Positions 58,349-64,000 of a DNA stretch of 64,000 bases are shown here, piece by piece. The translations under genes and the position numbers were made by a program. The number at the start of each line of letters is the position of its first letter. Position 1 is the first letter of the stretch. Location of the stretch: positions 9,141 through 73,140 of the IMG/VR virus record IMGVR_UViG_3300021963_000097; one strand, given 5' to 3'. Under the pieces are notes generated by a model. That model saw nothing but the letters and a program-made list of their open reading frames with translations, was not told where the DNA came from and did not search any database. This stretch comes from a virus.

Positions 58349-59065
58349 TTAGAGCTTGACGCTATAGCCAACGCTATAACCAGTAACTCTCTTAGAGTCA
58401 CTTGAAAGCCCGCTACTTTGTACAAAGAGATCAGCACCAAAGGTACCGCCTAATGCATTGTAAGCTAGACCGACCCCAGCTGTATAATACTTGTCCACAG
58501 ACTTAAGAGCATCTACTGTAGCAGCTTCTGGATTGTTAAAACCAACGCCAAATGCTGGAACAATCTTAACGGTCTTAGAGCCGATTGGTAATCTGATATT
58601 AGCTTCATAATTTGAGTTATGATTCTTTGTATCAAATAAAGCAGTTACATCCCAAGGGAAGGCTTTAAACACTTTACCACCAACTGTTACGTATGGTAAA
58701 ACATTATTTTGAATACCACCGAGAGCAGCTGACTTACTTGCGTTCTTAAAAACCCCACCAACTGTTACATCAGCAACAGTAGAATTAAGTTTATAAGATG
58801 CGACGACATCGACGCGTTTAAACAACCCTGAGTTTGAAAGCTCCTTGCCGCCAAGACCCTCGCTTGTTTCATAGGTACTGAAGCTATTGACCCCGAGGCC
58901 AAAACTCCCTACCTCTACGTTTGCACCAGCAACAATTTGATTGTTGCCAGTTACTACACCCTGTTCAATAAGTTTTGATTTAAAACCAACGTCAACTGAG
59001 CTCGTGAAAGCAGAAGCAACGCTGGCAATAGAAGCCAAAACCATAATTTTAATTAATTTATTCAT
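58349..59065 (-). CDS. Outer-membrane beta-barrel protein with signal peptide
   Basis: MNKLIK-hydrophobic-ASA signal; alternating amphipathic strands; C-terminal GYSVGYSVKL beta-signal. Confidence 0.7.
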   Translation of the reverse strand: MNKLIKIMVLASIASVASAFTSSVDVGFKSKLIEQGVVTGNNQIVAGANVEVGSFGLGVNSFSTYETSEGLGGKELSNSGLFKRVDVVASYKLNSTVADVTVGGVFKNASKSAALGGIQNNVLPYVTVGGKVFKAFPWDVTALFDTKNHNSNYEANIRLPIGSKTVKIVPAFGVGFNNPEAATVDALKSVDKYYTAGVGLAYNALGGTFGADLFVQSSGLSSDSKRVTGYSVGYSVKL

Positions 59066-59139
59066 GCTTTAATATTTAATACTTTTCACCTAAGAAATCA
59101 ACGTTAATTAATAATTTCTTTGTAGGGATATACTTAAAT

Positions 59140-59214
59140 TGGTACCGCTACGGAGAATCGAACTCCGATTAACGAGATGAAAACCCGTTGTACTAACCGT
59201 TATACGATAGCGGC
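59140..59214 (-). tRNA. tRNA-Glu(UUC)
   Basis: Cloverleaf; anticodon arm ACGGG-TTTTCAT-CTCGT; encoded CCA. Confidence 0.92.
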
Positions 59215-59224
59215 AAAAATTAAA

Positions 59225-60121
59225 TTAACAAATTAAACCAACTTTACCGTCAGGTCCATGACCTGGAGGGTTTTCTCCTACCCAGCGCTCATCAATGGGC
59301 TCGGAAGCTTTTTGATAACGACTGTCACTAGAGAGTCTCAAACTATCGGGCACTTGATTATCTAGAGCTGCATGAACCGTTAACATATTAAATGTTAATA
59401 AGTCTCCAGCTTTATAATCTGCTACTAACCACTTATGACCAAATTTGTTACGTATTGCAGGTGGGTTATGCGACAATGTACCAGAAAATACCCACTCCCC
59501 ATTCTCTACCTTAGCAAGATCTTCTTTTTTATTCTTACAATACACATCAACATCTCGATATGCATATTTTTTTAAGATATCTAATCGTTTATGGGACTTT
59601 TCTAAAATCATTAAACCCCCTAACTCATATGGAACATCTCCGTAAGGTACCCAGCATGTCATTTGATTATGAGTGCCTCTACCCATATACGGTAAGTCAC
59701 AATGTGGGTTTGTACCTTTACCAGGCCCAATTGCTCTTAACCAAGTGTAGTCATAAGGACGTACTTCTTCTCCAAAAATTAATTTATAAAAATCCATTAT
59801 CTTGCCTGTATAGAGAAGCTTTTGTAAGGGTTCGCATTCTTTAGCAATTTCTGGCTTAAACCCAACACCATCAATCTTCTCTAATAAAGCGGAACGTACA
59901 TTTAATACTTCTTCTCTTTCAAAGAAACCTTTAATATAAAGATACCCTGAATCATTATACCTTCTACGTAACTCAATACTATTATTAATAATATCAGATG
60001 AATCTCTCATCTCACCAATCTTATCATAACTCATATCAAGTTCATGACCATATGAAACCATTTGAGGTAGTTCGGGACCTGGTTGAGGATAAGCTGAATT
60101 TGTGTGGGGGTTTATAGGCAT
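59225..60121 (-). CDS. Phytanoyl-CoA dioxygenase (PhyH)-family Fe(II)/2OG oxygenase
   Basis: GYLYIKGFF, PHCD, TCWVP.GD, GGLMILE.SH, AGDLLTF...VHA..N...RLSSD.RY. Confidence 0.88.
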   Translation of the reverse strand: MPINPHTNSAYPQPGPELPQMVSYGHELDMSYDKIGEMRDSSDIINNSIELRRRYNDSGYLYIKGFFEREEVLNVRSALLEKIDGVGFKPEIAKECEPLQKLLYTGKIMDFYKLIFGEEVRPYDYTWLRAIGPGKGTNPHCDLPYMGRGTHNQMTCWVPYGDVPYELGGLMILEKSHKRLDILKKYAYRDVDVYCKNKKEDLAKVENGEWVFSGTLSHNPPAIRNKFGHKWLVADYKAGDLLTFNMLTVHAALDNQVPDSLRLSSDSRYQKASEPIDERWVGENPPGHGPDGKVGLIC

Positions 60122-60144
60122 ATAATATATAGAGACGGAAAATA

Positions 60145-60759
60145 CTATCTGTTATTATTAACAAATACTAACCAAGAGATTAAAATAGTCTTGTCGCTAG
60201 ACAAAGGTACATTACCTTTATGTATATATGGAAACCCGGCAGGGTGTACTAAAAGTTTACCCTTTTCGGGTTTAATTTTTTGTCCAGTATATAGCATTTC
60301 AGTCTCGCCTCCTTCCTCTACATCATTAAGATACACTAGTAAAGCAAAAAACCGACGAGACATTTTAAACGTACCCCCTTCGTGGTGCCAAGCATTATAG
60401 TGGCCAGTACTTTTTTTATATCTCTGTACCTGTAAAGAAATAAATGTTGTTGGCTCAATAAAATTTGTCATTCCTGGAAATTGATCTTGATGAGGAAAGC
60501 CAGTAATATATTTTTTTACACAATCATTAAATATATTGTATATTTCATTACTGGCACTCAATGCTACTGAGTCTATTTTTGATTGCTTTATTAAATCAAA
60601 GTCCACTGTGTCTTTAACTGTTTTATCCACCCCTCTACCAGTCGTGCCTTCGTATGTAGTGCCTGTTGTAAGAGCAGTGTCATACATTTTCAATAATGTG
60701 TCACAAAGCTCATTAGAAAATGCCTTTGGATATATACCTATAGTATCTTGTAGTAGCAT
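60145..60759 (-). CDS. Prolyl-4-hydroxylase-like Fe(II)/2OG oxygenase
   Basis: QRY...WHHE...R....LVYLNDVEEGGET...KPEKG.L...P....YIH.G..P....K. Confidence 0.88.
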   Translation of the reverse strand: MLLQDTIGIYPKAFSNELCDTLLKMYDTALTTGTTYEGTTGRGVDKTVKDTVDFDLIKQSKIDSVALSASNEIYNIFNDCVKKYITGFPHQDQFPGMTNFIEPTTFISLQVQRYKKSTGHYNAWHHEGGTFKMSRRFFALLVYLNDVEEGGETEMLYTGQKIKPEKGKLLVHPAGFPYIHKGNVPLSSDKTILISWLVFVNNNR

Positions 60760-60815
60760 AATACATTATTTACTCGGTTAATAAAAATATCAAATAACTA
60801 GCTAGTCAGGTAAAA

Positions 60816-60891
60816 TGGTACCAGGTGAGGGACTCGAACCCCCGGTGGGCACGATGTAAACGTGCTGCATTAGCCACTATGCTAACCTGGC
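60816..60891 (-). tRNA. tRNA-Val(UAC)
   Basis: Anticodon arm GCACG-TTTACAT-CGTGC; GGTTCGAGTCC; CCA. Confidence 0.92.
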
Positions 60892-60924
60892 AAAAAAAAA
60901 CCCGACTTAGTTTCCTAAATCGGG
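60892..60924 (-). terminator. Rho-independent terminator
   Basis: CCCGATTTAG-GAAA-CTAAGTCGGG followed by T9 on the minus strand. Confidence 0.85.
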
Positions 60925-60933
60925 CGTAGGTTG

Positions 60934-61044
60934 CTACTTTGTATATGTCAGCTGTGGTCTATTATATTCGCTACACGCGAGACTAATAAGACCGGCAACC
61001 GCGCTATACGATACTACCGTTACGATAATAATCATATGTTGCAT
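60934..61044 (-). CDS. Putative 36-aa single-TM peptide (or structured RNA)
   Basis: MQHMIIIVTVVSYSAVAGLISLACSEYNRPQLTYTK; SD AGAAGGA; own promoter and terminator. Confidence 0.45.
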   Translation of the reverse strand: MQHMIIIVTVVSYSAVAGLISLACSEYNRPQLTYTK

Positions 61045-61121
61045 TGTCCTTCTTGTTAGAACCGCCACCACTAAGGTTTTGGTTATTGCCCAGATAATGT
61101 CACTGGGCCTAATACTTATAT

Positions 61122-61149
61122 ATGATAAAACCTATTACTACATTATCAA
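61122..61149 (-). promoter_or_regulatory. Sigma70-like promoter TTGATA-N16-TATCAT
   Basis: Matches the recurrent architecture; followed by TAAGTA. Confidence 0.55.
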
Positions 61150-61193
61150 CCATATTACTTTCCTATAGCATATATAGGGATATCCTTAAATAG

Positions 61194-61359
61194 TTTCGTA
61201 TTAGAGGTACCGGGCTTGAGCAGTTCCGGCTTGAGAGGTCGCCTTGGCCATACACGACTTTCTCTGACTAATCATAGTGATTATCCTGATGGCCAAGATC
61301 CTCCACCTTTCGGTGCCTACCATGATATGTGTCCTTCCACATCGCCTACTAATACGAAA
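61194..61359 (-). ncRNA. Unidentified structured RNA A (about 166 nt)
   Basis: Terminal stem TTTCGTATTAG/CTAATACGAAA; CACC-GAAA-GGTG and other hairpins. Confidence 0.6.
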
Positions 61360-61360
61360 T

Positions 61361-61520
61361 TGAATTGAACGGGTAGGGTTTGATACCTACTGATGACATT
61401 GATTCTGACCCGCTCTATTAGGTAGTCATCGCTTCGTTTCAGAGGCTCGAGCTAAGGTCGACGTTCACCGAGCTTAATAGAACTTCTCAAGGCTGCATGT
61501 CCATCCACGCTGCCGTTCAA
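61361..61520 (-). ncRNA. tRNA-like structured RNA B (about 160 nt)
   Basis: Acceptor-like stem TTGAACGG/CCGTTCAA, D-like arm GCGT-GGATGGAC-ATGC, T-like arm GTAGG-TATCAAAC-CCTAC. Confidence 0.65.
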
Positions 61521-61522
61521 AT

Positions 61523-61597
61523 TGGGTGCAGAGGTTGGAATTGAACCAACTACCTCCTGGTTATGAGCCAGACGAGCTACCGATGCTCTACTCTGCA
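61523..61597 (-). tRNA. tRNA-Met(CAU), initiator-like
   Basis: TCTGG-CTCATAA-CCAGG; A11:U24 pair and fMet-like body; U1-A72. Confidence 0.85.
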
Positions 61598-61607
61598 ATA
61601 AGTTAGA

Positions 61608-61707
61608 TTCCTCTGCCATACAAGTCCTCCGAGAATTCCCAGAAGATAAGTGCACTTGTATACGTCAACTCTTACATGAGTTAACGGTCTGCATAAACAC
61701 AGAAGAA
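61608..61707 (-). ncRNA. Unidentified structured RNA D (about 100 nt)
   Basis: Closing stem TTCTTCTGT/GCAGAGGAA enclosing two long hairpins. Confidence 0.6.
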
Positions 61708-61709
61708 AT

Positions 61710-62110
61710 TGGTGGACCTGAGGGGAGTTGAACCCCTGTGTTCGGTAACTTTCCGATCAGTTTCTACAAGCTTAGTAGTAATGGTAAGTACTAATATCCT
61801 TACTACGAGATATTAGAATTTTCAGAATAACTATAATATCGTTTTATCTATTCTGATTCTCTTAAACGATATTCTCGCTGGATAACGGTTATAATATATA
61901 GCGAGAATCTACACTATAACCGATCACAGTTATTAGGCTGCGAGTGCGAATGCTTCAGTACCAGGAAAGGAAAAAGATTCCTTAACAGATGCTACAACAC
62001 TCTTGAGGCTTTGAATAATGCCATTTGTTGTTTTTTGCTAGTTTTGAAAGGTCTAACAACCCTGCTTGCTTCTAATAAGTCTATTACTGAATCGAATCCA
62101 GAACAGGCCC
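61710..62110 (-). ncRNA. ssrA: tmRNA
   Basis: 5' GGGCCTGTTCTGGATTCGA, 3' GGTTCAACTCCCCTCAGGTCCACCA, G3:U70 pair, tag frame ending FALAA-TAA-TAA (62022-61933). Confidence 0.93.
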
Positions 62111-62146
62111 AAAATAAAATATGTTAAAGAACGTAAGTATTAACTA

Positions 62147-62557
62147 ATGAATAGTGTAGACTCACTTAATAGTATTTACCAGCTTATTCTTGAAAAAAGA
62201 GTAGATACTGATCCTTCCTCTGCTGAATCATTTGAAAGATTTCTTAATAAGAGATTAGCAGGTGCTGAAAAACTTGCGGAAAGCACTAAGGCTAAAGGCG
62301 GTTACAGCACTTTAACAGCTATACATTATGCAGCTAAAGCTAAGCCTTATGCTGAGTGCATAAAGTTAAATTCTCAACATAAAGAGGATCAGGAAAAGGT
62401 TAATGAACTCTATAAACAAAAAGCTGAAGACGTTTATAATAAGTTAAGTGATCTAGATAGTTTGTCGCAAAAAGAGTTTCAAGCTCTAATGGGCGAGCTC
62501 GAGGTTTATGGCGAGGTTTATATCCGCGCGACTAAACCTGAGAGCCTTAAGATTTAA
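62147..62557 (+). CDS. Hypothetical protein inserted antisense within the RNA cluster
   Basis: LNSIYQLILE N-terminus; TAAGTA 7 nt upstream. Confidence 0.65.
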   Translation: MNSVDSLNSIYQLILEKRVDTDPSSAESFERFLNKRLAGAEKLAESTKAKGGYSTLTAIHYAAKAKPYAECIKLNSQHKEDQEKVNELYKQKAEDVYNKLSDLDSLSQKEFQALMGELEVYGEVYIRATKPESLKI

Positions 62558-62560
62558 TAG

Positions 62561-62636
62561 TGGTGGACCCGACAGGGATCGAACCTGCGACCTTCTGCTT
62601 GCAAAGCAGCTTCTCTACCAACTGAGATACGAGCCC
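62561..62636 (-). tRNA. tRNA-Ala(UGC)
   Basis: Loop TTTGCAA; G3:U70; CCA. Confidence 0.92.
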
Positions 62637-62641
62637 GAAAA

Positions 62642-62718
62642 TGGTGTCCTCGGCGGGATTCAAACCCACGACCCACAGCTTAGAAGGCTGTTGCTCTATT
62701 CAACTGAGCTACAAGGAC
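62642..62718 (-). tRNA. tRNA-Arg(UCU)
   Basis: ACAGC-CTTCTAA-GCTGT; CCA; T-loop TTTGAAT with D-loop GA (variant elbow). Confidence 0.9.
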
Positions 62719-62721
62719 AAG

Positions 62722-62797
62722 TGGAGCGGTAGACAGGGATCGAACCTGCGACATCAAGTTTGGAAAACTCGTTCTCTACCAACTGAGATACTACCGC
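62722..62797 (-). tRNA. tRNA-Gly(UCC)
   Basis: CGAGT-TTTCCAA-ACTTG; U73 discriminator; CCA. Confidence 0.92.
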
Positions 62798-62820
62798 ATT
62801 ATCTAATTTATAATTTCTTT

Positions 62821-62947
62821 AAAATAAAACCCCCTGGCGCCCTCTTTAGGAGGACCCCAGGGCACGTTGTTTTTATTGTGGTAATCCGTTAGTCTTCCCA
62901 CAAGTTGTCAACTCCTACTGTAACTCATTTAAACAGGATCAGCATGA
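62821..62947 (-). ncRNA. Candidate small RNA or attenuator leader E
   Basis: Promoter TTGCCT-N16-TATAAT (62981-62954), internal hairpins, GC-rich terminator-like stem followed by TTTTATTTT. Confidence 0.45.
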
Positions 62948-62999
62948 TAACTTATTATATTATTGTTACTAATTAAGGCAAGAGAATTTTGCCTTAAAA

Positions 63000-63091
63000 T
63001 GGTAGTCGTGCTCGGACTTGAACCGAGACTCGGCGCCAATCTAGCGCGCACAGTTTATAAGGCTGTCGGTGCTACATTACACTACACGACC
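63000..63091 (-). tRNA. tRNA with UAU anticodon (Ile) and long variable arm
   Basis: GGTCGTG/CACGACT-ACCA; ACAGC-CTTATAA-ACTGT; about 22-nt variable arm; CTCGG-TTCAAGT-CCGAG. Confidence 0.8.
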
Positions 63092-63096
63092 AAAAT

Positions 63097-63357
63097 TGGT
63101 GGGCGGTAAGGGATTCGAACCCCTAACCAAAGGATTATGCTTACCACTATAGTTTTCACTACCTTTACAGTTTGTGGTCTGGACTATGCCTTTACCATTT
63201 TACAGGTAGCTGATTATAGTCTCTACACGTTTCATTACGATTTCGCTCGGCGTTGGGATGTTAAACCGTTCACCGAATTTACAGCTTACTACTGTAACGT
63301 TTCCATTACAGCGACCCTTAATTAAGTCCTCTGCTCTAACCGTTGAGCTAACCGCCC
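63097..63357 (-). tRNA. tRNA-Ile2/Met(CAU) interrupted by a group I intron (exons 63357-63325 and 63139-63097)
   Basis: Spliced: GGGCGGTTAGCTCAACGGTTAGAGCAGAGGACT^CATAATCCTTTGGTTAGGGGTTCGAATCCCTTACCGCCCACCA; G1-C72, ileX-like body. Confidence 0.9.
63140..63324 (-). mobile_element. Group I intron, 185 nt, ORF-less
   Basis: P1 with U.G at the splice site (GACU/GGUC); P AAATTCGGTGAA, Q AACGCCGAGC, R GTAGAGACTA, S AAGGCATAGTCC; terminal G. Confidence 0.9.
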
Positions 63358-63378
63358 GTATTTAAAAGAACAAGACAT

Positions 63379-63406
63379 ATAGTAACTCTTTAACTGTAAA
63401 CATCAA
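63379..63406 (-). promoter_or_regulatory. Sigma70-like promoter TTGATG-N16-TACTAT upstream of the tRNA cluster
   Basis: Recurrent 16-bp-spacer architecture. Confidence 0.6.
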
Positions 63407-63423
63407 GAGTAAATTATTATTTT

Positions 63424-64000
63424 TTACTCTTTCCACGTCTGCCTATTATAATAAGATGCTACGATCGGCAAGATTGTAATATCTCTGCCAGATTCATAGG
63501 TTAAAATCCGTATTTCTGAAGCAAAATAACCGTCTCCACGATAGATCGGCCAGTATCTTAAGGGCCCTACTGCCTTTCTACGTACTAAAAACTGTCCATT
63601 ATCGATTTTTTGTATAGCTATATTAAAAATGCCGTCTACATAGCGAATTTCTCGGTTTTCTTGCTGTTGTCCTACTACAATCATATCGCATTTTGGAGAG
63701 TAGGTATGAGGCTCGACCAAATTAAAGTTTATATGCATTAAATTATCATCATCTAGTACATAAACCCATTGACCTTGATCGGGTATTACATCGTAGTAGT
63801 AATTAACCCCGGTATGCATTGACATATGTCCCGGTTTTACAATAATTGTCGTGTTTTTATATTTGGTAAAATTGAGAGAAAGCGCTTTATCTGCTGTAGT
63901 TACAATATACCACTGGTAATTTATGTTAAGCGCTTTAATAGACTCATATGCCCGATCAATAAAGTCGGGAGTACGAGACAAACAGGTAACAATATGTATC
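63424..64000 (-). CDS. GT-A (GT2-like) glycosyltransferase, 5' truncated by window edge
   Basis: Frame open to the edge (IHIVTCLSRTP); WVYVLDDDN, ID.GQF, GDG.F motifs. Confidence 0.7.
   Translation of the reverse strand, partial: IHIVTCLSRTPDFIDRAYESIKALNINYQWYIVTTADKALSLNFTKYKNTTIIVKPGHMSMHTGVNYYYDVIPDQGQWVYVLDDDNLMHINFNLVEPHTYSPKCDMIVVGQQQENREIRYVDGIFNIAIQKIDNGQFLVRRKAVGPLRYWPIYRGDGYFASEIRILTYESGRDITILPIVASYYNRQTWKE

What the first reader, a model, noticed from the sequence alone, without database searches (positions are those of the whole stretch)
61361..61520. tRNA-mimic RNA B: tRNA elbow with the anticodon arm replaced by a domain of about 105 nt
Seen: an 8-bp acceptor-like stem with 3' TTCA, a D-like arm with GG, and a T-like arm with an 8-nt loop TATCAAAC. 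The insert has TTCTATTA/TAATAGAG, GCTCG/CGAGC and a possible pseudoknot GATGAC/GTCATC. It has no anticodon arm, no group I core and no tag frame. Inference: a tRNA-shaped decoy or scaffold, e.g. for anticodon nucleases, synthetases or Ro-like proteins.
Basis: partly seen in the sequence, partly recalled or inferred. Interest (0 to 1): 0.7.

Follow-up and report, generated by a model that had tools for sequence, protein, structure and literature searches.

The report
tRNA-shaped non-decoding RNA in phage tRNA array
This is a real gene for a 160-base folded RNA that sits among the tRNA genes of a large freshwater phage, keeps a tRNA-like stem-and-hairpin frame but cannot read codons, and belongs to an uncatalogued family whose job is still unknown.

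Summary
The RNA starts 2 nt after tRNA-Met and has an 8-bp closing stem, a D-like hairpin, a T-like hairpin with an 8-nt loop and about 104 nt in between.

The motif alone is not beyond chance: 3 such patterns in the window against 1.35 in shuffles. Relatives make it real. I found 22 full-length copies and 8 shorter relatives (76-117 nt), all inside phage tRNA arrays and co-oriented with the tRNAs.

Compensatory base changes support four helices: the closing stem (4 of 8 pairs), the T-like stem (3 of 5), the inner GCUCG/CGAGC hairpin (2 of 6) and GAUGAC/GUCAUC. The last is an ordinary arm, not necessarily a pseudoknot. UUCUAUUA/UAAUAGAG never varies and stays unproven.

It is not a tRNA. No Rfam family matches, ARAGORN with introns finds nothing, and there is no 7-nt anticodon loop. 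Its 3' end is UUCA, whereas all 7 tRNAs and the tmRNA here encode CCA.

Best reading: a stable RNA released from the array transcript by the tRNA-processing enzymes, like the T4 species 1/2 and T5 "tRNA-like stable" RNAs. The decoy function is untested, and no Ro gene is present in a complete 297-kb carrier phage.

The parts
61361..61520 (-). RNA B gene, 160 nt (pos 1 = 61520)
   Evidence: Read. Covariance model R1 scores it 187.9 bits. It is 159/160 identical in the colinear relative L051, where the neighbouring protein gene is 87.4% identical.
61513..61520 (-). 5' strand of the acceptor-like closing stem (UUGAACGG)
   Evidence: Pairs with 61365-61372. 4 of 8 pairs show changes on both sides across 17 family members, and 98.5% of cells are paired.
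61365..61372 (-). 3' strand of the closing stem (CCGUUCAA)
   Evidence: Variant-clade and 117-nt members carry a 1-nt bulge at the same place in this strand.
61495..61510 (-). D-like hairpin GCGUG-GAUGGA-CAUGC
   Evidence: Present in 16 of 17 members. G13.U24 becomes G-C in 4 short forms. There are no double changes. One lineage (L063/L071/L078) has a C x A mismatch.
61431..61494 (-). Insert domain found only in the long form. It contains hairpin P3 (61445-61473 = pos 48-53/71-76).
   Evidence: The apical 47-75 segment is wholly replaced between the two clades, yet the 6-bp stem is kept: U-A<->A-U, G-C<->A-U, G.U<->G-C. The short forms lack this domain.
61392..61430 (-). Arm H5: GAUGAC/GUCAUC (pos 91-96/124-129), with a predicted inner ACCU/GGGU helix
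   Evidence: In 16 of 17 members exactly one upstream 6-mer pairs with the 6 nt that precede A + T-like arm: GAUGAC/GUCAUC, GAUGGC/GUCAUC, GACAAC/GUUGUC or GGCAGC/GCUGUC. RNAalifold predicts it.
61373..61390 (-). T-like hairpin GUAGG-UAUCAAAC-CCUAC (5 bp, 8-nt loop)
   Evidence: 3 of 5 pairs have changes on both sides, and 98.8% of cells are paired. Loop letters UAUCRA are invariant and the last two vary.
61361..61364 (-). 3' tail UUCA, in the place of NCCA
   Evidence: All 7 tRNAs and the tmRNA of the window end in CCA followed by an A/T-rich spacer. RNA B has UUCA followed by AUUU. The 112-nt relatives have UCCA.
61523..61597 (-). tRNA-Met(CAT), ending 2 nt before RNA B
   Evidence: ARAGORN and Rfam.
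61190..61357 (-). 'RNA A', a second structured RNA directly downstream. It travels with tRNA-Met and RNA B as one module.
   Evidence: Fold -64.3 kcal/mol, z = -5.01. The module 61188-61604 is 97-99% identical in L049/L050, where it lies beside other genes.
61605..61705 (-). Structured cassette between the tmRNA and tRNA-Met (closing stem UUCUUCUG/CAGAGGAA)
   Evidence: z = -4.61. It is conserved at 79-100% in L062, L066 and L077.
61710..62110 (-). Phage tmRNA at the head of the RNA run
   Evidence: Rfam RF00023, 99.5 bits.

Best explanation
RNA B is a gene for a stable, non-decoding, tRNA-framed RNA of an uncatalogued phage family.

Shown:
- It is a conserved structured RNA, read in the same sense as the tRNAs.
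- Its fold is a closing (acceptor-like) helix stacked next to a T-like hairpin, a D-like hairpin, one conserved arm (GAUGAC/GUCAUC), and, in the long form, an extra domain whose tip is swappable.
- It occurs only inside tRNA arrays of large aquatic phages, in several different neighbourhoods.

Inferred:
- It is co-transcribed with the tmRNA and the tRNAs.
- It is cut out by the host tRNA-processing machinery. RNase P would cut at the 5' side of the closing stem, because closing stem plus T-like hairpin form the minihelix that RNase P accepts. Endo- and exonucleases would act in the A/U-rich spacer at the 3' side.
- This is the way reported for the T4 species 1 and 2 RNAs (that report is recalled, not read here).
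- The frame most likely descends from a tRNA gene whose CCA has decayed to UUCA.

Most speculative step: in the cell it acts in trans through its shape and its nearly invariant central segments. It would bind or titrate a protein that recognises the upper half of tRNAs, either a host defence or processing factor or a phage factor. It would not pair with a target RNA.
For: Context:
- It is on the strand of all 7 tRNAs and starts 2 nt after tRNA-Met.
- In relatives it starts 3-4 nt after tRNA-Arg(TCG) or tRNA-Glu, or directly after another cassette RNA.
- No promoter-like or terminator-like site lies between the tmRNA and RNA A on that strand. A terminator-like site follows at 60925-60900.

Conservation in the colinear relative L051:
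- tRNAs 100%; RNA B 159/160; RNA A 167/168.
- Spacers 79-97%; small ORF 91.9%; 2OG-oxygenase gene 87.4%.

Covariation:
- 12 distinct long sequences: 98.0% of cells paired, 4 pairs with changes on both sides, 0 of 500 shuffles reach the covariation score.
- 17 family members: 97.2% paired, against 24-42% when partners are slid. 9 of 32 pairs have double changes: closing stem 4/8, T-like stem 3/5, P3 2/6.
- The H5 arm is kept in three different spellings, in 16 of 17 members.
- All wobble pairs are G.U in the tRNA sense. They would be C x A on the other strand, which argues for RNA and against a DNA hairpin.

Family:
- Model R1 finds 22 full-length copies (181-206 bits), three 112-nt relatives (45 bits) and two 76-nt relatives (20 bits, E 0.026) in 59 sources totalling 618,665 bases.
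- It also finds two 117-nt relatives (55 bits) and one copy cut by a contig end.
- A complete 297-kb phage carries one long and one short copy about 110 kb apart.

tRNA ancestry:
- R1 gives marginal full-length matches to 3 annotated T5 tRNAs (Ser, Phe, Ser): 11-13 bits, E 0.045-0.1.
- The 112-nt relatives end in UCCA.
- The spacing UUCA|AUUU mirrors CCA|AUUU of the neighbouring tRNAs.

Precedent:
- T4 has tRNA-Arg -> rnaD (119 nt) -> rnaC (139 nt) in tandem. rnaC has a canonical T arm next to its closing stem.
- The T5 record annotates RNA1, RNA2 and RNA3 as 'tRNA-like stable RNA with unknown functions' within its tRNA region.

RNA libraries: contigs from two metatranscriptome runs of different studies cover the gene. 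This is weak, because DNA can be present in such libraries.
Against: - No direct evidence of transcript ends, processing or stability. All laid runs were contigs, which cannot show ends or strand.
- The tRNA likeness is partial: an 8-nt T-like loop, no double change in the D-like stem, a C x A mismatch there in one lineage, and a closing stem of 6-8 bp.
- No tRNA, tmRNA or YrlA model match at E<=10.
- The fold energy of the window copy is not better than shuffles (z -1.07).
- Thermodynamics disfavour P3 in the window copy (pair probability 0.01).
- The long sequences fall into only two clades, so each double change among them is about one event.
- Alignment A3 was fitted to the model, which leans towards the structure.
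- High identity between distant phages could reflect recent cassette transfer rather than selection.
- The lack of CCA weakens the RNase P and aminoacylation analogies.
- Nothing here bears on what it binds.
Confidence: 0.6

Rival explanations
1. It acts in cis only. It would be a processing or stability 'punctuation' element that helps the polycistronic tmRNA/tRNA precursor fold, be cut and resist exonucleases. The excised piece would have no job of its own.
For: - Several unrelated cassettes in these arrays share only a closing stem with a hairpin next to its 3' strand and A/U-rich spacers: RNA A, the post-tmRNA cassette, the RNA starting UUUGAAUAG, and others.
- The apical part of P3 is freely replaced, and whole arms are present or absent among relatives.
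Against: - About 100 nt outside the helices are nearly invariant between clades that are otherwise 84-87% identical over this gene and share nothing else but tRNAs and one cassette.
- That is more sequence constraint than a cutting handle needs.
- A complete phage keeps two different family members in two arrays.
Confidence: 0.15
2. It is a DNA-level mobile element (MITE-like). The 'acceptor stem' would be a pair of terminal inverted repeats, spreading among phage tRNA arrays.
For: - Cassettes with 8-11-bp inverted ends appear in different orders and beside different neighbours.
- The slot between the tmRNA and the small ORF holds different content in related phages.
Against: - Compensatory changes also occur in internal helices.
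- Wobble pairs are all G.U on the tRNA-sense strand.
- The element is always co-oriented with the flanking tRNAs.
- No transposase gene and no target-site duplication were seen by reading the junctions.
Confidence: 0.07
3. It is a Y-RNA-like partner of a Ro (TROVE) protein, or another RNA-repair scaffold.
For: - Bacterial Y RNAs (YrlA) carry a tRNA-like module.
- A review notes Ro genes in some jumbo phages (passage read in PMC7824862).
Against: - TROVE (PF05731) is found in 0 of 5 records, including a 100%-complete 297-kb carrier. The control rings in 2 of 14 reference genomes.
- The only YrlA model hits in 58500-64000 lie on true tRNAs.
- The topology differs: in RNA B the 5' and 3' ends close the acceptor-like stem, not a Ro-binding stem (the YrlA topology is recalled, not checked here).
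Confidence: 0.05
4. It is a working but unusual tRNA (with an intron, or with a giant variable region), or a small tmRNA-like molecule.
For: - An 8/5 acceptor/T branch as in bacterial tRNA-Sec (passages of PMC5389517).
- An invariant AUGACUACCUAAUAG, which contains two stop codons, lies in the H5 arm.
Against: - ARAGORN with introns of 10-200 nt finds nothing at default stringency. At relaxed stringency it gives only implausible calls elsewhere or overlapping tRNA-Met.
- There is no hairpin with a 7-nt loop. The arm loops are 6, 8 or 17 nt.
- There is no G3.U70, no tag frame ending in ALAA and no tmRNA model match.
- There is no CCA, whereas 7 of 7 tRNAs and the tmRNA encode it.
- The short relatives lack the AUG...UAA segment.
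Confidence: 0.03

Closest known systems
Bacteriophage T4 species 1 and species 2 RNAs (rnaC, 139 nt; rnaD, 119 nt)
   Same: - Two small stable RNAs lie in tandem directly after a tRNA, at the end of a phage tRNA sub-cluster and on the tRNA strand. T4 has tRNA-Arg, then rnaD after 1 nt, then rnaC after 6 nt. The window has tRNA-Met, then RNA B after 2 nt, then RNA A after about 3-7 nt.
- rnaC has a T arm placed directly before the 3' strand of its closing stem.
- Function is unknown in both. That RNase P releases the T4 RNAs is recalled, not read here.
   Different: - No detectable homology. The best R1 score in the T4 tRNA region is 5.3 bits, E 0.86.
- T4 rnaC has a canonical 7-nt UUCGAAU loop and no D-like hairpin. 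RNA B has an 8-nt loop, a D-like hairpin and a modular centre.
Bacteriophage T5 RNA1, RNA2 and RNA3, annotated 'tRNA-like stable RNA with unknown functions'
   Same: They are annotated inside the T5 tRNA region, partly in tandem (RNA1-RNAI-RNAIII-tRNA-His), on the tRNA strand, at 73-144 nt.
   Different: R1 does not match them. Its only matches at E<=1 in that 15-kb region are 3 true tRNAs and one place in a coding region.
tRNA (Rfam RF00005), especially class II and tRNA-Sec-like 8/5 forms
   Same: - A closing stem abutting a 5-bp hairpin whose last pair is G-C.
- GG in a 5' hairpin loop.
- A 2-nt linker after the closing stem.
- Position and spacing as in a tRNA array.
- Marginal R1 matches to real tRNAs.
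   Different: - No anticodon arm.
- An 8-nt T-like loop.
- No CCA.
- No model match.
tmRNA tRNA-like domain
   Same: The acceptor and T arms are kept, and the anticodon arm is replaced by a large structured domain. A real tmRNA lies 190 nt upstream.
   Different: - No G.U at the third pair.
- No tag reading frame.
- No pseudoknot series.
- No model match.
- A stemmed D-like arm is present.
GOLLD and ROOL large RNAs of phages
   Same: They are structured non-coding RNAs of unknown function. The tRNA-array link rests only on a search term hit in PMC12286853 (listing and start of abstract seen) and on recall.
   Different: They are several hundred nucleotides long and have their own Rfam families. 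Neither matches here.

Membership tests
tRNA (RF00005) | Match to the covariance model at or near the gathering score | tested here: not met
   No match overlaps 61361-61520 at gathering score or at E<=10. There is none for the 117-nt and 76-nt relatives in 151- and 451-base searches.
tRNA (RF00005) | Anticodon arm with a 7-nt loop, directly or after removal of an intron | tested here: not met
   ARAGORN with and without introns makes no call on the gene. The arm loops are 6, 8 or 17 nt.
tRNA (RF00005) | Acceptor stem stacked on a 5-bp T stem (12-13 bp branch) | tested here: inconclusive
   The branch is 8+5 in the long form. It is 7+5 with a bulge, or 6+5, in the short forms. Both helices covary.
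tRNA (RF00005) | 7-nt T loop UUCRANN and D loop with GG | tested here: inconclusive
   The loop is UAUCRANN (8 nt) in 17 of 17 members. GAWGGA is present in 16 of 17. A tertiary elbow contact cannot be tested with these tools.
tRNA (RF00005) | 3' NCCA, encoded as in the neighbouring genes | tested here: not met
   RNA B has UUCA. 7 of 7 tRNAs and the tmRNA have CCA. Only the 112-nt subgroup has UCCA.
tmRNA (RF00023) | Model match, G3.U70, and a tag frame with a resume codon | tested here: not met
   No model match. ARAGORN -m at relaxed stringency finds none. The third pair is G-C.
YrlA / Y RNA with Ro | Model match and a Ro (TROVE) partner gene | tested here: not met
   YrlA hits lie only on true tRNAs. 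TROVE is found in 0 of 5 records. Host genomes are unknown.
Phage tRNA-cluster stable RNAs (T4 rnaC/rnaD, T5 RNA1-3) | Non-tRNA gene inside a phage tRNA cluster, on the tRNA strand, a few nt from the neighbouring gene | tested here: met
Phage tRNA-cluster stable RNAs (T4 rnaC/rnaD, T5 RNA1-3) | Released from the precursor by RNase P and accumulating as a stable species | not testable with these tools
   Only contigs of RNA libraries were available. They cover the gene but show no ends.
Phage tRNA-cluster stable RNAs (T4 rnaC/rnaD, T5 RNA1-3) | Sequence or structure homology to the T4 or T5 RNAs | tested here: not met
   R1 against T4: best 5.3 bits, E 0.86. R1 against T5: only true tRNAs and one place in a coding region.

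The most novel reading that the evidence does not exclude
Large aquatic phages use one tRNA-derived frame (closing stem, D-like hairpin, T-like hairpin) as a display and processing chassis. Interchangeable RNA modules are plugged into it. RNA B is one such display RNA, and its invariant centre is an aptamer-like module that captures a host factor, for example a tRNA-directed defence nuclease or sensor. That would make the family an RNA-based counter-defence toolkit carried in tRNA arrays.
Probability: 0.15. Interest if true: 0.85.

Novelty: new variant of a known kind. Interest (0 to 1): 0.55.

Why it matters
Small stable non-tRNA RNAs in phage tRNA clusters have been known since T4 and T5, and none has an assigned function. 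This locus shows that such RNAs are not oddities of two laboratory phages.

- A conserved, covarying family with a modular build is spread through tRNA arrays of uncultured freshwater and estuarine phages.
- It sits alongside at least three other structured cassettes and a phage tmRNA.
- The family has long and short forms and naturally swapped arms. This gives a ready-made set of variants for asking what the frame does and what the inserts do.
- It would also improve annotation. These genes are at present invisible to tRNA finders and to Rfam.

Tried and rejected
- Relatives through flanking proteins and through a conserved tmRNA 23-mer. These phages keep the tmRNA (68-80% identity) and the small ORF region, but have no RNA B. 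The slot is variable.
- Exact T-arm 18-mer in IMG/VR: 3 hits, all chance. One is a terminator hairpin, one is coding, and none has a tRNA nearby.
- blastn against 50,697 phage records. Only tRNA-Met matched the window stretch. A 383-base stretch holding three cassette RNAs of L055 had no match.
- 22-mer of the D-like arm in 185,579 species genomes: one hit, in a GC-rich stretch of a rumen MAG with no T-like arm. I take it as chance.
- Antisense targets. The longest exact complement of RNA B anywhere in the window is 11 nt, as expected by chance.
- Phage-encoded CCA-adding enzyme (PF01743): 0 of 5 records.
- Ro/TROVE: 0 of 5 records.
- Read laying. The contigs gave no ends, no strand and no usable depth. 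Parts without cover in RNA runs are not evidence.
- Earlier notes of this scan. Look-ups by place and by sequence gave nothing. The look-up by words gave leads.
- Literature. Four full-text searches listed no paper describing this family. I read only passages of PMC7824862 and PMC5389517. The T4 genome review was not held. Supplements were not opened.
- UUCUAUUA/UAAUAGAG as an established helix. It is invariant in 12 of 12 long sequences, apart from its terminal pair, which is broken in 6. It is absent from the short forms. By my estimate it is not longer than chance gives in 160 nt. It competes with the predicted inner ACCU/GGGU helix. I keep it only as a possible tertiary contact.

Full report
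**What the window is.** The window is the last 64 kb of a 73-kb IMG/VR virus fragment with an estimated completeness of 32%. Its large terminase is 31-37% identical to those of T4-like rhizobial and pseudomonad myophages. It encodes a tail sheath and tail-fibre proteins. Next to the RNA genes it carries glycosyltransferases, a GMP-reductase-like protein and two 2OG/PhyH oxygenases. Public runs that hold the 1219-base stretch around the finding are lake, freshwater, estuary and marine metagenomes. 20 of 24 listed rows hold part of it, and 17 hold half or more of the sampled words; their studies number 18.

**The observation.** All seven tRNA genes lie on the minus strand, and so does a tmRNA (Rfam, 99.5 bits). 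Read on that strand, the finding is a 160-nt unit. I number it so that pos 1 = 61520.
- It begins 2 nt after the CCA of tRNA-Met.
- No Rfam family matches, at gathering score or at E<=10.
- ARAGORN finds no tRNA or tmRNA here, also with introns.

**Is it more than chance?** By itself, no.
- The minimum free energy (-43.6 kcal/mol) is matched by 27 of 200 shuffles.
- The tRNA-like arrangement costs only 0.7 kcal/mol more than the unconstrained optimum.
- A script that looks for an 8-bp perfect closing stem with an adjacent 5-bp hairpin and a 5-bp hairpin near the 5' strand finds 3 places in the window. Forty dinucleotide shuffles give a mean of 1.35 and a maximum of 3.
- The case therefore rests on relatives.

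**Relatives: what failed.**
- Phages found through the flanking proteins or through a conserved tmRNA 23-mer keep the tmRNA (68-80% identity) and a small ORF region. They have other content, or nothing, where the window has tRNA-Met, RNA B and RNA A.
- An exact T-arm 18-mer scan of IMG/VR gave three chance hits.

**Relatives: what worked.**
- Laying contigs of four runs on the stretch showed divergent copies whose downstream sequence differs from the window's.
- A 21-mer scan of JGI metagenome contigs gave five loci. Two are 99.7% identical to the window. One is a colinear relative (L051, 92.4% overall). In two (L049, L050) the block 61188-61604 (tRNA-Met + RNA B + RNA A) is 97-99% identical but sits beside different genes.
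- In L051 the tRNAs are 100% identical, RNA B 159/160 and RNA A 167/168. The spacers are 79-97%, the small ORF 91.9% and the oxygenase gene 87.4%.
- A short motif from the downstream sequence of the divergent copies then fetched 31 IMG/VR loci. RNA B homologues of 84-87% identity lie in 16 of them.
- Between the window and ten of these loci, the only DNA-level matches are tRNAs, RNA B and one further cassette.

**Structure from covariation: the long sequences.** These are 12 distinct long sequences, 4 of the window clade and 8 of the variant clade (alignment A2).
- 98.0% of cells pair in the proposed structure.
- Four pairs change on both sides: 5:152 in the closing stem, 50:74 and 52:72 in hairpin P3, and 131:148 in the T-like stem.
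- None of 500 column shuffles reaches the covariation score. Sliding the partners by 1-3 columns drops pairing to 29-42%.
- The segment 47-75 is wholly replaced between the clades, yet a 6-bp stem stands in the same columns.

**Structure from covariation: the wider family.** A covariance model (R1) was run over 59 held sources totalling 618,665 bases.
- It found 22 full-length copies (181-206 bits), three 112-nt relatives (45 bits) and two 76-nt relatives (20 bits, E 0.026).
- A scan with the D-like arm added two 117-nt relatives (55 bits) and one copy cut by a contig end.
- On the 17-member, model-fitted alignment A3, 97.2% of cells pair, against 24-42% when slid.
- 9 of 32 pairs have double changes: closing stem 4 of 8, T-like stem 3 of 5, P3 2 of 6, D-like stem 0 of 5 (one G.U to G-C change and three unpaired cells), and UUCUAUUA/UAAUAGAG 0 of 8.
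- A script shows that in 16 of 17 members exactly one upstream 6-mer pairs with the six bases before 'A + T-like arm'. The spellings are GAUGAC or GAUGGC with GUCAUC, GACAAC with GUUGUC, and GGCAGC with GCUGUC.

- GAUGAC/GUCAUC is a conserved, ordinary arm.
- It is the positional counterpart of the single long arm of the short forms.
- The short forms fold as a four-way junction: closing stem, D-like hairpin, arm and T-like hairpin (z = -3.0 for the 117-nt form).
- The long form adds a fifth element, the 31-90 domain with P3.
- UUCUAUUA/UAAUAGAG stays unproven. It could be a loop-to-strand contact or nothing.
- All wobble pairs are G.U in the tRNA sense. This points to an RNA structure and not to a DNA hairpin.

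**Why it is not a tRNA, tmRNA or Y RNA.**
- No hairpin has a 7-nt loop.
- The T-like loop has 8 nt. UAUCRA is invariant and the last two letters vary.
- The third pair of the closing stem is G-C.
- The short forms get no tRNA, tmRNA or YrlA match at E<=10, even in searches of 151 and 451 bases.
- All 7 tRNAs and the tmRNA of the window encode CCA followed by an A/T-rich spacer. RNA B has UUCA followed by AUUU. The 112-nt relatives have UCCA, and the other forms have AUUA or UAUU.

**Signs of tRNA ancestry.** A decayed CCA and marginal full-length R1 matches to three real T5 tRNAs (11-13 bits, E 0.045-0.1) fit descent from a tRNA gene.

**Context and mechanism.**
- RNA B copies always lie in tRNA arrays of 13-26 genes on the tRNA strand.
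- They lie 3-4 nt after tRNA-Arg(TCG) or tRNA-Glu, after another cassette RNA, or before the post-tmRNA cassette.
- A complete 297-kb phage has a long copy and a 117-nt copy about 110 kb apart.
- In the window the run is: tmRNA, a structured 100-nt cassette (z = -4.61), tRNA-Met, RNA B, RNA A (z = -5.01), a conserved 36-codon hydrophobic ORF, then a terminator-like hairpin.
- No promoter-like or terminator-like site lies between the tmRNA and RNA A on that strand.
- The shared feature of all these cassettes is a closing stem with a hairpin directly before its 3' strand. From general knowledge of RNase P, that is the minihelix the enzyme accepts.
- I therefore infer co-transcription and release by the tRNA-processing enzymes.

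**Where this precedent comes from.** T4 has tRNA-Arg, rnaD and rnaC in tandem. T5 annotates several 'tRNA-like stable RNA with unknown functions' in its tRNA region. RNA B has no detectable homology to either. That the T4 RNAs are RNase P products is recalled, not read here.

**Function.** Nothing here shows it.
- No antisense target above chance exists in the window.
- No Ro/TROVE gene is found in 0 of 5 records. No CCA-adding enzyme gene is found in 0 of 5 records.
- The near-invariance of about 100 nt outside the helices, between clades that share little else, argues for a trans-acting role with sequence-specific contacts. Recent cassette transfer could mimic this.
- My ranking: a stable tRNA-framed RNA acting in trans on a tRNA-recognising protein (most likely, but unproven); a purely cis processing handle; a DNA-level mobile element; a Y-RNA-like partner; a working tRNA or tmRNA.

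**Novelty.**
- Four full-text searches listed no description of this family, and Rfam 15 has no model for it.
- Earlier notes of this scan report the same kind of anticodon-less, tRNA-framed RNAs in other phages, also with T4 and T5 as nearest precedents. These are unchecked leads, not support. I verified only the T5 annotation.
- I rate it a new variant of a known kind: real, tidy and useful, but neither unique nor yet explained.

Noticed in passing
window 61190-61357 (-): 'RNA A' is a 168-nt RNA directly after RNA B. It has an 11+3-bp closing stem, a hairpin AUGUG-GAAGGA-CACAU two nt after the 5' strand (the same loop type as in RNA B relatives), a GAAA-capped hairpin, a long central hairpin, and a hairpin before the 3' strand. 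Fold -64.3 kcal/mol, z = -5.01. No Rfam match and no R1 match.
   Followed up: partly
window 61605-61705 (-): The 'spacer' between the tmRNA and tRNA-Met is itself a structured cassette (closing stem UUCUUCUG/CAGAGGAA, z = -4.61). It is conserved at 79-100% in L062, L066 and L077, where a longer version stands in other positions.
   Followed up: partly
L055 2258-2480 (-), and 31 IMG/VR loci L054-L084: An RNA of about 230 nt starts UUUGAAUAGCAGCUCGGA and ends CUAUUCAAA (a 9-bp closing stem). It follows RNA B in the variant clade and follows other cassettes elsewhere. No Rfam match at gathering score in the five loci searched, at E<=10 in L055, or by blastn against phage records.
   Followed up: partly
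L055 2481-2548 (-); L065 and L072 upstream of the motif: Two further cassette RNAs lie in the same arrays: UUGAUAGUU...AACUAUCAA (about 75 nt) and UUACUGCA...UGCAGUAA (about 135 nt).
   Followed up: no
window 60934-61044 (-): A 36-codon ORF (MQHMIIIVTVVSYSAVAGLISLACSEYNRPQLTYTK) with a Shine-Dalgarno-like AAGAAGGA upstream. Its region is conserved at 68-69% DNA identity in relatives that lack RNA B. A strong terminator-like hairpin follows at 60900-60925.
   Followed up: partly
window 63000-63091 (-); L017 9719-9812: tRNA-Ile(TAT) is 92-94 nt long, far longer than a class I tRNA. Its Rfam score is the lowest of the seven (42.1 bits).
   Followed up: no
window 61710-62110 (-): A phage-encoded tmRNA is found by Rfam (99.5 bits) but not called by ARAGORN in the window. 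ARAGORN does call the homologues in L017 and L059, with long tags ending in AA.
   Followed up: no
window 61457-61462 (-) and variant loci, apical loop of P3: The swapped P3 loops both contain a 6-nt palindrome: GUCGAC in the window clade and UGUACA in the variant clade. Each is flanked by further self-complementary bases, which could allow loop-loop dimerisation. My estimate of the chance probability is a few per cent. Not tested.
   Followed up: no
L002 5508-5565 (+): A piece of about 55 nt has a tRNA-like D arm (GTAGCTCAGTTAGTAGA) and a T-like hairpin (CTTGG-TTTGAGT-CCAGG) but no anticodon arm. It lies in the same slot of a related phage.
   Followed up: no
window 62147-62557 (+): A 136-codon ORF lies on the opposite strand between tRNA-Ala and the tmRNA. 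It is conserved at 67-68% DNA identity together with the tmRNA in L034-L038. It has no Pfam match.
   Followed up: no
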